A DNA stretch of 64,000 nt from the NCBI RefSeq assembly GCF_050920415.1, contig NZ_CP169309.1; one strand, given 5' to 3'. Numbering within the stretch: position 1 is the stretch's first letter; the number at the start of each line of letters is the position of its first letter. The notes beneath the pieces were generated by a model that was not told the origin of the DNA, did not search any database, and worked only from the letters and a program-made list of their open reading frames with translations. Positions 60,402 to 60,903 of the stretch are shown one piece after another. Made by a program: the position numbers and the translations under genes. This stretch comes from Escherichia coli (GTDB lineage: Bacteria; Pseudomonadota; Gammaproteobacteria; Enterobacterales; Enterobacteriaceae).

Positions 60402-60424
60402 AACCTGCTACGGCAGGTTTTTAT
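60402..60424. terminator. Hairpin terminator between ogr and the 60421..60903 gene
   Basis: aacctgc-tacg-gcaggtt followed by tttttatt. Confidence 0.5.
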
Positions 60425-60903
60425 TCATCTGGGATCTCACCCGTTTCAAGAAAATGTATAAAGCCAGGCTCATCTATGATGATAGTGCCTTTCATCCTGG
60501 CTGCCGATACTTTTGATGGGCCTGCATTGTAACCGCAACAGAGCATCTGAAGGTTTTGGGTTACAGATGTTCTTACCGTTAATCCTTGTTCATTCGCCTT
60601 ATCAACCAACCTTTCTTTATCTGCTTTCTTAAATCCGGTGAAACACACATCGAATGTATTTTTTTTCGGACCTGACTGCTTAGTGAGATGTGAGTAGTTT
60701 TCGGGGAGGAATGACGCGCATTCCTGAATGGCTTGTTCTTGTGAATCGTATTGTTTAAGAATGCGGTCTTTTCGGAAGGTTTTTATTCGATCGGTGTTCT
60801 TACAAATGCCCTGTATGTGATTTTCGCTATAACTGATGCTCTGTATTGAGTGAACACCGATACGACCATTTGCATTGATGTAAACAAAGTGAAGTTCTTC
60901 CAT
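60421..60903 (-). CDS. Hypothetical protein with C-terminal BRCT-like domain, cargo gene adjacent to ssrA-proximal att
   Basis: 160-aa AT-rich ORF; C-terminal ...FDVCFTGFKKADKERLVDKANEQGLTVRTSVTQNLQMLCCGYNAGPSKVSAARMKGTIIIDEPGFIHFL resembles a BRCT fold motif (by eye). Confidence 0.5.
   Translation of the reverse strand: MEELHFVYINANGRIGVHSIQSISYSENHIQGICKNTDRIKTFRKDRILKQYDSQEQAIQECASFLPENYSHLTKQSGPKKNTFDVCFTGFKKADKERLVDKANEQGLTVRTSVTQNLQMLCCGYNAGPSKVSAARMKGTIIIDEPGFIHFLETGEIPDE

What the first reader, a model, noticed from the sequence alone, without database searches (positions are those of the whole stretch)
60421..60903. BRCT-like small protein between ogr and the ssrA attachment junction
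A 160-aa AT-rich ORF on the minus strand occupies the last position before the reconstituted ssrA, a slot with no counterpart in canonical P2 that I recall. Its C-terminal half looks like a BRCT fold, a phosphopeptide- or DNA-end-binding domain that I recall as rare in phage proteins outside ligases; the N-terminal ~70 aa are unassigned. It could be an anti-defence or DNA-repair-interfering factor.
Basis: inference. Interest (0 to 1): 0.55.

Follow-up and report, generated by a model that had tools for sequence, protein, structure and literature searches.

The report
Lysogen-expressed WYL–BRCT prophage moron
The ORF is a real prophage accessory gene, switched on in lysogens, that encodes a small two-domain DNA-sensing protein (WYL + BRCT) from a large uncharacterised family usually found right after the phage repressor gene; it is probably a factor acting against foreign DNA, but that function is untested.

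Summary
A 160-aa ORF lies on the minus strand at 60421..60903. It is the last gene of a 35.9-kb P2-like prophage inserted in ssrA, and its GC is 41% against 51% for the prophage.

The C-terminal half is a BRCT domain. It is closest to the DNA-binding BRCTs of RFC1 and LigA, and its phosphate pocket (T89-G90...K131) is kept in 98-100% of 237 relatives. The "unassigned" N-terminal half is a WYL barrel, whose best structural matches are the ssDNA-sensing domains of PafBC, CapW, BrxR and DriD. No enzymatic or HTH domain is present, so the database names "DNA ligase" and "exonuclease" are artefacts.

In at least 14 other prophage lineages examined the gene directly follows the immunity repressor, and in three more one gene intervenes. 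In this lineage it lies across attP from CI-int. Fels-2 and P2 have this slot empty, and other E. coli prophages carry a retron-type reverse transcriptase there. Published LF82 RNA-seq shows that the identical protein is among the best-expressed Cartapus prophage genes.

I read it as a lysogen-expressed sensor or binder of ssDNA and 5'-phosphate DNA ends, used for exclusion or defence. That function is inferred. The anti-defence reading is not favoured.

The parts
60421..60903 (-). ORF of 160 aa (stop codon included): the WYL-BRCT protein
   Evidence: The protein is 100% identical to Cartapus gp32 / LF82_783.
60709..60903 (-). Residues 1-65: WYL domain, a five-stranded Sm/SH3-like barrel (strands 3-52) plus one helix. 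Motif Y8 ... (R/K)41-T-F-R-K-D-R-I48.
60436..60654 (-). Residues 84-156: single BRCT domain of the RFC1/LigA type, with pocket T89-G90, K96 and K131
   Evidence: Conservation is T89 98%, G90 100%, K/R96 98% and K131 99% in 237 modules.
60910..60914 (-). Shine-Dalgarno AGAGG (AAGGTGA in other genera)
   Evidence: sequence; alignment across seven genera
60959..60978 (-). Block TGGCGGCAAAATGGCGACAG (two TGGCGGCA-like half-sites); 18 of its 20 bases are invariant across seven sequences. Probably Int arm-type sites of the attP P' arm, not a promoter.
   Evidence: The function is inferred by analogy with the annotated P2 attP arms.
60991..61018 (-). Intrinsic terminator for ssrA, supplied by phage DNA: a 12-bp stem followed by UUUUCUU. 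It lies between ssrA and the ORF.
   Evidence: The stem is kept through a compensatory change in Erwinia.
60402..60419 (.). Hairpin between the convergent ogr and WYL-BRCT genes, a likely bidirectional terminator
   Evidence: sequence
61026..61071 (.). attR core: the 3' end of ssrA, a 46-nt perfect repeat of 25105-25150
25105..25150 (.). attL core. In the circular phage it joins the CI-int-GapS1 unit to the WYL-BRCT gene.
   Evidence: Gene order in the circular phage is taken from Cartapus.
25283..28463 (-). Lysogenic unit: CI (27831..28463), int (26816..27829) and GapS1 antiphage cargo (25283..26803). It is co-oriented with the WYL-BRCT gene across attP.
60176..60394 (+). ogr/Delta-like late activator, convergent neighbour (context only)
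61027..61389 (-). ssrA (tmRNA), co-oriented and upstream of the ORF in the prophage state (context; possible source of read-through transcription)
   Evidence: Read-through is an inference.

Best explanation
**What it is**
The ORF is a genuine accessory gene (moron) of a P2-like, Elveevirus-type prophage, and it is expressed in the lysogen. It encodes a small protein with no catalytic domain, made of two nucleic-acid-recognition modules:
- an N-terminal WYL barrel, the module that senses single-stranded DNA in CapW, DriD and PafBC;
- a C-terminal BRCT of the RFC1/LigA class, with an intact phosphate pocket. This class recognises 5'-phosphorylated DNA ends, nicks and gap junctions.

**How it most likely works (inferred)**
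In the lysogen the protein recognises DNA structures that an integrated prophage and an intact chromosome rarely expose. These are ssDNA next to a 5'-phosphate end, nick or gap, as found on injected linear or cos-ended genomes and on replication or recombination intermediates. By binding them it hinders an incoming or competing element. It could block end joining or processing directly, or recruit a host factor. Relatives appear to couple the same sensor module to membrane-spanning segments or to a second, unknown domain.

**Shown versus inferred**
- Shown: domain architecture, pocket conservation, linkage to the lysogeny module, variable occupancy of the slot, and expression in lysogens.
- Inferred: the ligands, the target, and the exclusion or defence outcome.
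For: **Architecture**
- BRCT.
- WYL.
- No other domain was found in Pfam, NCBIfam, PHROGs or PADLOC.
- The WYL+BRCT fusion is listed among WYL architectures by Makarova et al. 2014 (PMC4012209).

**Ligand sites conserved**
- In 237 modules: T89 98%, G90 100%, K/R96 98%, K131 99%, Y8 100%, T42 95%, R47 91%.
- In the profile alignment to yeast Rfc1, FTG aligns with FTG, K96 with the Arg of LER, and GPsK with GPKK.
- WYL domains of CapW and DriD bind ssDNA (PMC11662680; PDB titles).

**Lysogeny linkage**
- The gene is co-oriented with, and directly downstream of, the repressor in Mannheimia PHL101, Vibrio PV94, Xenorhabdus, Y. ruckeri and 11 of 24 genome loci.
- One gene intervenes in the Burkholderia, Serratia and P0166-type prophages.
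- The integrase follows directly, or after cargo.
- A variant with fused transmembrane helices sits directly after a lambda-like CI/S24 repressor, divergent from cro.
- In this lineage the order is CI-int-(cargo)-attP-gene.

**Expression**
- LF82_783 = CARTA_32 is 15x above prophage background in LB. It is at or above CI in LB and DMEM and below CI in macrophages (PMC9928086).

**Location logic**
- The cI-int interval of K139-like P2 relatives and the int-att interval of P2-like phages are reported defence hotspots (PMC9122126; preprint 10.64898/2026.02.27.708500).
- The same ogr-ssrA slot is empty in Fels-2 and P2. It holds a retron-type RT in 28-33 E. coli genomes.
- The other side of attP carries GapS1 here and a RES protein in Cartapus.
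- Outside prophages the gene sits next to McrB-N/HNH and Mrr-type nucleases.
- GC is 41% against 51% for the prophage.
Against: - No experiment links this family to phage exclusion. No paper in the searched library treats it.
- It matches no curated defence family. The only PADLOC hit is a partial BRCT-only hit to candidate PDC-S48. NCBIfam 2026 has no family for it.
- The protein has no effector domain and a neutral pI of 6.95, so blocking by binding alone is speculative.
- In E. coli the gene is nearly fixed in this prophage type: 175 genomes against 202 with the int type. In other lineages it always sits in the repressor-proximal position. Both could equally indicate a role in the phage's own lysogeny.
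- A BRCT phosphate pocket can also bind phosphopeptides or poly(ADP-ribose) (PMC6334254).
- The arginines that flank the WYL strand in CapW (RWHVR) are not present here (N-H-I-Q-G).
Confidence: 0.4

Rival explanations
1. It modulates the lysogeny switch or prophage induction. The protein is co-expressed with CI and senses DNA damage (ssDNA or gaps). It then acts on the phage's own CI, Apl, Int or host factors to tune maintenance of lysogeny or entry into lytic growth. This would be analogous to the second role described for lambda RexA (my recollection of the literature, not read here), or to WYL sensors of DNA damage.
For: - The gene holds the repressor-proximal position in many lineages.
- WYL domains of CapW, DriD and PafBC sense the ssDNA produced by DNA damage.
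- The gene is nearly fixed in the E. coli lineage.
- Its expression broadly tracks CI across conditions.
Against: - It accompanies at least four unrelated repressor types: 186-type CI, LexA-like S24 CI, P2 C-type and small XRE. This argues against a specific partnership with one repressor.
- It is absent from P2, Fels-2 and all but 28 of the phage records searched by tblastn, so the switch does not need it.
- The prophage already carries a DinI/Tum-like gene.
- It also occurs outside prophages, next to nucleases.
- It has no HTH.
Confidence: 0.2
2. It is an anti-defence or host-repair-interfering factor. It would bind DNA ends or nicks, or a host BRCT partner or LigA substrate. This would shield phage DNA from RecBCD or other nucleases, or disturb host repair.
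For: - The BRCT is most similar to the LigA/RFC1 class, which recognises nicks and 5'-P ends.
- WYL could bind ssDNA overhangs.
- The protein is small and has no effector, which is typical of inhibitors.
Against: - The gene is never found in the early lytic operon. It is always on the repressor/integrase strand.
- It is strongly expressed in the resting lysogen, when no defence needs countering.
- Relatives with transmembrane fusions, and neighbours that are nucleases, look like defence architectures.
- The alternative occupant of the slot is a retron-type RT.
Confidence: 0.15
3. It helps the phage's own DNA transactions while lysogeny is being established. It might hold or protect the cos ends, assist circularisation, or assist Int-mediated recombination at attP, which lies directly beside the gene.
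For: - The gene is adjacent to int or attP in many lineages.
- In the circular phage it is co-oriented with the CI-int unit, downstream of it across attP and the phage-borne terminator; co-transcription is not shown.
- Its modules recognise DNA ends and nicks.
Against: - Close relatives that use the same attB (Fels-2) and the same type of integrase lack the gene, and so does P2.
- It is highly expressed long after integration.
- It is present in lambdoid prophages and in non-phage islands.
Confidence: 0.1
4. It is a sensor or regulator subunit for the neighbouring cargo defence gene: GapS1 here, RES in Cartapus.
For: - In the circular phage the gene is adjacent to the int-att cargo.
- WYL proteins commonly regulate defence systems.
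Against: - The cargo differs (GapS1, RES) or is absent (Yersinia phage MLG42) while the WYL-BRCT gene stays.
- In most lineages there is no such neighbour.
- The protein has no HTH.
Confidence: 0.05
5. It is a DNA ligase or an exonuclease, as database labels say.
For: The labels in PHROG 2561, RefSeq PHL101 and Cartapus.
Against: - Matches to LigA and DEDDh models cover only their C-terminal BRCT segments and score far below the curated cut-offs: 21-26 bits against 389-444.
- The protein is 160 aa and both halves are accounted for by WYL and BRCT.
Confidence: 0.01

Closest known systems
BRCT domains of RFC1 (p140) and bacterial NAD+-dependent ligase LigA
   Same: These are the best sequence-profile and Foldseek matches (RFC1 7.6e-6, LigA 2.8e-5; 7u19_A RFC on nicked DNA). 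The fold is the same, and the T-G / basic / K pocket positions are conserved.
   Different: Here the BRCT stands with a WYL barrel only. There is no clamp-loader or ligase catalytic module. DNA binding is untested. RFC1 needs extra N-terminal residues and neighbouring domains to bind DNA (PMC9293009).
wHTH-WYL-WCX regulators (CapW, BrxR, PafBC, DriD)
   Different: It has no wHTH and no WCX domain, so it is not a transcription factor of this family. The WYL tripeptide is H-I-Q here, and the CapW RWHVR arginines are absent.
Lambda rexA/rexB and other exclusion genes co-transcribed with the repressor (for example K139 glo)
   Same: The genomic logic is the same: a non-essential gene directly after the immunity repressor, expressed in the lysogen. 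Relatives fuse the sensor to 1-4 transmembrane helices, reminiscent of a DNA-sensing RexA plus a membrane RexB. My knowledge of Rex and glo comes from the literature, not from tests here.
   Different: Similarity to RexA/B or Glo was not tested, and Pfam and PHROG scans gave no such match. The window protein has no membrane part and no partner gene. No exclusion phenotype is known.
Variable defence hotspots of P2-like prophages (Rousset et al. 2022; 2026 preprint)
   Same: The gene lies in or next to the cI-int and int-att intervals reported as hotspots. The slot has alternative occupants: empty, retron-type RT, or WYL-BRCT. GC is low.
   Different: The ogr-att slot itself is not one of the described hotspots. 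The gene is not among the listed systems; neither paper mentions BRCT or WYL. Across lineages it keeps a fixed repressor-proximal place rather than swapping freely.
PADLOC candidate PDC-S48; PHROG 2561 and PHROG 36782
   Same: PHROG 2561 is this family (2.5e-77 over the full length). PHROG 36782 is the same module plus a C-terminal domain. PDC-S48 shares the BRCT only.
   Different: All are uncharacterised. The PHROG label 'DNA ligase' is an annotation artefact.

Membership tests
BRCT domain (Pfam PF00533) | beta-alpha-beta-beta-alpha-beta-alpha fold of about 80-95 residues | tested here: met
BRCT domain (Pfam PF00533) | Significant match to the family profile | tested here: met
   The query alone is weak (i-E 0.0015). 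Among relatives, 12 of 39 and 20 of 29 match at E<=1e-3, best 1.6e-10. The family profile against PDB gives RFC1 7.6e-6 and LigA 2.8e-5.
Phosphate-binding BRCT subclass (RFC1, LigA, XRCC1-BRCT1, phosphopeptide binders) | Pocket: S/T-G after beta1 and Lys at the start of alpha2, plus a basic residue in alpha1 | tested here: met
   T89 98%, G90 100%, K/R96 98% and K131 99% in 237 modules. Their positions at the end of beta1 and in alpha2 follow the model. They align to the Rfc1 FTG, R and K residues.
Phosphate-binding BRCT subclass (RFC1, LigA, XRCC1-BRCT1, phosphopeptide binders) | Actual binding of 5'-phosphorylated DNA (or of another phospho-ligand) | not testable with these tools
   This needs EMSA or anisotropy with 5'-P against 5'-OH substrates. 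Phosphopeptide and poly(ADP-ribose) remain possible ligands.
WYL domain (Pfam PF13280) | Five-stranded Sm/SH3-like barrel that superposes on solved WYL domains | tested here: met
WYL domain (Pfam PF13280) | Match to the family profile and the R-x-F-R-x-D-R-I motif | tested here: met
   The query itself has no Pfam hit. 22 of 83 N-domains and 10 of 29 fused relatives match at E<=1e-3, best 2.3e-8. The N-domain profile hits the PafC/PafBC WYL motif at E 0.003. The motif is conserved.
WYL domain (Pfam PF13280) | Canonical W-Y-L tripeptide and flanking arginines (RWHVR in CapW/BrxR) | tested here: not met
   The equivalent strand reads N-H-I-Q-G-I-C. This is a divergent WYL. The tripeptide also varies within accepted members.
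wHTH-WYL-WCX transcription factors (CapW, BrxR, PafBC, DriD) | N-terminal winged HTH and C-terminal WCX domain | tested here: not met
   The protein starts with the WYL barrel at residue 3 and continues into the BRCT. No HTH is seen in Pfam or the model.
NAD+-dependent DNA ligase LigA / DEDDh exonuclease (database labels) | Adenylation + OB + Zn + HhH domains, or a DEDDh exonuclease domain | tested here: not met
   Only the C-terminal BRCT segments of these models match, at 15-26 bits against cut-offs of 369-1051. The protein is 160 aa and is fully accounted for by the two domains.
Known anti-phage defence or anti-defence families (PADLOC 2023, NCBIfam 2026) | Full-length match to a curated model | tested here: not met
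   PADLOC gives only BRCT-only hits to PDC-S48 (1.7e-7) and a WYL hit at E 0.027. NCBIfam has no family for it, yet it does recognise the neighbouring GapS1.
Prophage moron (gene expressed in the lysogen, not needed for the lytic cycle) | Transcribed in the lysogen well above structural genes | tested here: met
   Published RNA-seq for the identical protein in LF82: 15x above background; log2 6.6-9.5 against about 2.3-3.4 for tail genes. Gene identity is confirmed.
Prophage moron (gene expressed in the lysogen, not needed for the lytic cycle) | Dispensable and variably present among close relatives, with atypical composition | tested here: met
   The slot is empty in Fels-2 and P2 and holds an RT in other E. 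coli prophages. GC is 41% against 51%.
Rex-like exclusion module downstream of the repressor | Exclusion or abortive-infection phenotype; DNA sensor plus membrane effector | not testable with these tools
   Only the position and the transmembrane-fused relatives resemble it. No Rex or Glo family appeared in the Pfam, PHROG or NCBIfam scans; no direct comparison was made.

The most novel reading that the evidence does not exclude
An effector-less WYL-BRCT protein is a new kind of prophage-encoded immunity. It captures the ssDNA/5'-phosphate ends or gaps of incoming or replicating foreign DNA and so prevents their circularisation or processing. Membrane-anchored relatives would do the same at the entry site. 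In the ssrA-integrating lineage the gene has no recognisable promoter, and it may be driven by read-through from the host tmRNA gene once the phage is integrated. That would be a split-operon style rewiring of a moron by integration.
Probability: 0.15. Interest if true: 0.75.

Novelty: new variant of a known kind. Interest (0 to 1): 0.5.

Why it matters
Prophage genes co-expressed with the repressor (rexAB, sieB, glo, old, tin) have repeatedly turned out to be immunity functions.

This family is large: 3135 cluster representatives at 50% identity. It spans P2-like and lambdoid prophages of Gamma- and Betaproteobacteria and also occurs in marine Pelagibacteraceae and Pseudothioglobus genomes. 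It is mislabelled in databases, and it is already known to be strongly transcribed in a Crohn's-disease E. coli strain, yet it has no assigned function.

Its two modules predict a specific ligand that can be tested: ssDNA next to a 5'-phosphate end. If the protein does act on foreign DNA, it would show how a sensor without an enzymatic effector can protect a lysogen. It would also add a marker gene for the repressor-proximal cargo position.

If it instead tunes the phage's own switch, it would be a new link between DNA-damage sensing and lysogeny that does not use an HTH.

Tried and rejected
- **Single-sequence searches were weak.** Pfam BRCT gave i-E 0.0015 and no WYL hit. PDB phmmer gave E 0.07. 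Family alignments were needed.
- **Ligase and exonuclease readings rejected.** Only the BRCT segments match.
- **Known defence or anti-defence family rejected.**
- **Literature found nothing on this protein** apart from the LF82 moron table:
  - BRCT + P2-like;
  - BRCT + anti-phage + prophage;
  - the WP_ accession;
  - WYL + BRCT.
  - The hit in the integron paper was a false lead, 'BRiC'.
  - The LF82 CRISPRi preprint supplement held no entry for this gene.
- **No own promoter found.** The scan found no sigma70-like site in 60904-60990, and the seven-genus alignment shows no conserved -10/-35.
- **Leader RNA structure.** It folds strongly (z -5.6), but only the terminator hairpin is conserved. 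The second hairpin has a positive covariation term, and the stem that covers the start codon shows no compensatory change, so I make no riboswitch or attenuator claim.
- **C-terminal extension domain of relatives.** It has no Pfam or PDB sequence match.
- **Partner of the neighbouring GapS1/RES cargo rejected.** The cargo varies or is absent while the gene stays.
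Full report
**1. Observation**

An AGAGG ribosome-binding site lies 6 nt upstream of the start.

It is the last gene of a prophage bounded by a perfect 46-nt direct repeat at 25105-25150 and 61026-61071. That repeat is the 3' end of the tmRNA gene ssrA, 61027..61389 on the minus strand.

Downstream, and convergent with it, lie an ogr-type zinc-finger gene and the P2 tail genes D, U and T.

The ORF has 41% G+C against 51% for the prophage. In canonical P2 the ogr terminator is followed directly by the attP arms and int. In Fels-2, which also uses ssrA, ogr lies 115 bp from att.

**2. Domain content**

*BRCT half.* On the single sequence the evidence is thin. Pfam gives i-E 0.0015 and the RFC1 BRCT in PDB gives E 0.07. 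It becomes solid with relatives:
- A 39-sequence alignment (A1) used as a profile hits RFC1 at 7.6e-6 and Thermus LigA at 2.8e-5.
- 12 of 39 and 20 of 29 relatives match Pfam BRCT on their own.
- The AlphaFold2 model (pLDDT 91.6) has the BRCT topology in residues 85-154.
- Foldseek ranks RFC bound to nicked DNA first.

- The three best hits of the N-domain profile are at WYL-type motifs: PafC, PafBC and the C-terminus of a chain deposited as an AAA family ATPase, at E about 0.003.
- Pfam WYL matches 22 of 83 N-domains and 10 of 29 longer relatives, best 2.3e-8.

*Nothing else.* No other domain is present, so the labels "DNA ligase" (PHROG 2561, RefSeq PHL101) and "putative exonuclease" (Cartapus) come only from BRCT similarity to LigA and to DEDDh-BRCT proteins. 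The WYL+BRCT fusion was listed, without study, by Makarova et al. 2014.

**3. Conserved sites**

I aligned 237 modules to the family profile.
- BRCT pocket positions: T89 98%, G90 100%, K/R96 98%, K131 99%.
- WYL positions: Y8 100%, T42 95%, R44 82%, R47 91%.

T89-G90 end strand beta1 and K131 lies in helix alpha2. This is the arrangement of the phosphate pocket in phosphate-binding BRCTs, which I state from established knowledge. It is consistent with the alignment to Rfc1 FTG...R...GPKK.

The class can bind 5'-phosphorylated DNA, phosphopeptides or poly(ADP-ribose). WYL domains of CapW, DriD and PafBC bind ssDNA. The WYL tripeptide is H-I-Q here, and the CapW RWHVR arginines are missing, so this WYL is divergent.

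**4. Family and architectures**

The exhaustive profile search finds 3135 cluster representatives at E<=1e-3 and 209 at E<=1e-30. Three forms occur:
- The stand-alone form of about 160 aa dominates.
- Of 29 relatives with N-terminal extensions, 22 have 1-4 predicted transmembrane helices.
- Others carry a conserved ~200-aa C-terminal domain with no Pfam or PDB match. This domain also occurs as a separate gene just downstream (L020).

**5. Genomic context**

This is the most informative result.
- The gene directly follows the immunity repressor on the same strand, with gaps of 3-35 nt, in four lineages:
  - Mannheimia PHL101;
  - Vibrio PV94;
  - Xenorhabdus;
  - Yersinia ruckeri.
- The same holds in 11 of 24 loci from a species-level genome scan.
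- One gene intervenes in the Burkholderia, Serratia and P0166-type prophages.
- The integrase follows directly or after cargo.
- The repressors are of at least four unrelated types.
- A transmembrane-fused relative sits directly after a lambda-like HTH/S24 CI, divergent from cro. From my knowledge of lambda, that is the position rexAB holds.
- Outside prophages, the gene neighbours a McrB-N/HNH protein in a Pelagibacteraceae genome and an Mrr-type nuclease in a Pseudothioglobus island.

In the lineage of the window (Elveevirus: Cartapus, Yersinia MLG42, and loci from Raoultella, Erwinia, Citrobacter, Tatumella and Pantoea) the order in the circular phage is CI-int-(cargo)-attP-gene. Integration therefore moves the gene to the far end of the prophage, downstream of ssrA.

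**6. The slot is variable**

In E. coli complete genomes the gene occurs in 175 of 5426 genomes at 95-100% identity. The matching integrase type occurs in 202. In 28-33 genomes the same ogr-ssrA interval carries a 257-aa retron-type reverse transcriptase plus a 57-aa ORF instead.

Fels-2 and P2 have the interval empty. On the other side of attP the cargo also varies: GapS1 in the window (3e-128, 31% GC), a RES protein in Cartapus, and nothing in MLG42.

Rousset et al. 2022 describe the cI-int interval of K139-like phages as a defence hotspot. A 2026 preprint lists int-att and int-primase hotspots in P2-like phages. Neither mentions this protein.

**7. Expression**

The Cartapus prophage of E. 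coli LF82 encodes a 100%-identical protein. Misson et al. 2023 list it (LF82_783 = CARTA_32) as one of two Cartapus morons, 15-fold above the prophage background in LB. Their supplementary table gives these log2 values:

| Gene | LB | DMEM | Macrophages |
|---|---|---|---|
| WYL-BRCT (LF82_783) | 6.6-6.9 | 9.1-9.6 | 7.6-8.8 |
| CI | 5.0-5.1 | 8.0-8.4 | 8.1-9.3 |
| Tail genes | about 2.3-3.7 across all conditions | | |

Expression in the integrated state is therefore shown.

How the gene is transcribed is not explained:
- It lies between two terminators, 61018..60991 and 60419..60402.
- Its 87-nt leader has no sigma70-like promoter and no conserved promoter across seven genera.
- The only strongly conserved element (18 of 20 bases invariant) is TGGCGGCAAAATGGCG[A/G]CAG. 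I take this to be Int arm sites, by analogy with P2 attP.

Read-through of the phage-supplied ssrA terminator, which has an imperfect U tract, is an attractive but untested source. The leader folds strongly, but only the terminator hairpin is supported comparatively.

**8. Interpretation**

*Shown:*
- It is a real prophage moron expressed in the lysogen.
- It encodes WYL + BRCT with conserved ligand sites and no catalytic or HTH domain.
- It is linked across many lineages to the repressor/integrase module.
- It sits in a slot that otherwise holds defence-type cargo.

*Inferred:* it recognises ssDNA next to 5'-phosphate ends, nicks or gaps and uses this against incoming or competing DNA, that is, for exclusion or defence. 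Relatives would couple the same sensor to membrane segments or to an unknown domain. I give this 0.4.

*Rivals:*

| Reading | Confidence |
|---|---|
| Modulator of the phage's own switch or induction | 0.2 |
| Helper of integration or end handling | 0.1 |
| Regulator of the neighbouring cargo | 0.05 |
| Ligase or exonuclease | about 0.01 |

The main arguments against my reading are these:
- There are no phenotype data.
- The protein has no effector.
- It is nearly fixed in the E. coli lineage.
- Its repressor-proximal place is constant, which could equally point to a role in lysogeny itself.

**9. Novelty and score**

The domains, the kind of locus and the fusion itself are known, and the LF82 study already flagged the gene as a moron under a wrong name. 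In the library I searched I found no report of four things:
- the WYL assignment for this phage protein;
- the conserved pocket;
- the repressor-linked synteny across P2-like and lambdoid prophages;
- the transmembrane-fused and split variants, and the alternative occupancy of the ogr-ssrA slot.

I rate it a new variant of a known kind, with interest 0.5.

Noticed in passing
window 25283-26803 (-): A GapS1-family antiphage gene (NCBIfam NF047931, 3e-128; 31% GC) lies between the integrase and attL. Cartapus carries a RES/NAD+-binding protein at the same place, and Yersinia phage MLG42 carries nothing. This makes it an int-att cargo slot.
   Followed up: partly
L043:2550-3465 (E. coli A28), equivalent to window ~60400-61020: In 28-33 E. 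coli genomes the same ogr-ssrA slot carries a 257-aa retron-type reverse transcriptase (PADLOC RT_VI, 6.6e-18) plus a 57-aa ORF instead of the WYL-BRCT gene. The 175 genomes with WYL-BRCT plus about 28 with the RT roughly equal the 202 genomes with this integrase type.
   Followed up: partly
window 60991-61018 (-): The intrinsic terminator that ends ssrA in the lysogen is supplied by phage DNA. It is conserved across genera, with a compensatory change in Erwinia. Its U tract is imperfect (UUUUCUU).
   Followed up: partly
window 60959-60978: The block TGGCGGCAAAATGGCG[A/G]CAG (tandem TGGCGGCA half-sites) is strongly conserved across seven sequences, 18 of its 20 bases being invariant. It is probably Int arm-type binding sites of attP. 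It is the only strongly conserved element in the gene's leader.
   Followed up: partly
window 60904-60990 (-): No sigma70-like promoter is detectable for a gene that RNA-seq shows to be strongly expressed in the lysogen. It may be read-through from ssrA. The leader RNA folds with z = -5.6, but beyond the terminator the structure is not supported by covariation.
   Followed up: partly
L039:3323-4348 (metagenomic lambdoid prophage): A relative with three N-terminal transmembrane helices fused to WYL-BRCT sits directly after a lambda-like CI (HTH_3 + Peptidase_S24), divergent from cro, which I recall is where lambda carries rexAB. Of 29 N-terminally extended relatives, 22 have predicted transmembrane helices.
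   Followed up: partly
L040:6001-7218; L020:6502-7098: A conserved ~200-aa domain of unknown function is either fused to the C-terminus of WYL-BRCT or encoded by the next gene. Its motifs are W-T-Q-G..F.F..G and Q..F..LLQ.G, and it has no Pfam or PDB match.
   Followed up: partly
L038:5254-6492 (Pelagibacteraceae) and L010:7001-8519 (Pseudothioglobus): Outside prophages, the WYL-BRCT gene is paired with a McrB-N/HNH protein (4-nt gap, same strand), or lies tail-to-tail with an Mrr-type nuclease gene (opposite strand) in an integrase-bearing island.
   Followed up: no
window 60131-60394 (+): The mechanical ORF for the ogr homologue starts at GTG 60131 (87 aa). RefSeq annotation and the NCBIfam match place the start at 60176 (72 aa).
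   Followed up: no
window 20555-22495: A family of five 39-nt imperfect repeats lies in the region left of the prophage. It probably belongs to a YpjA/EhaD-like autotransporter adhesin gene of a CP4-57-type island remnant.
   Followed up: no
L042:3501-3561 (E. coli AR_0128): About 620 E. coli genomes carry only the ssrA-proximal 61 nt of this attP arm (terminator plus the TGGCGGCA block). In the one example examined (E. coli AR_0128) it lies near ypjA and a recombinase fragment. It looks like a scar of earlier elements that integrated in ssrA.
   Followed up: no
PHROG 2561; RefSeq NC_008201, NC_049342, NC_070909: The annotations 'DNA ligase' and 'putative exonuclease' for this family are transferred from BRCT-only similarity and should be replaced by 'WYL-BRCT domain protein'.
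   Followed up: yes
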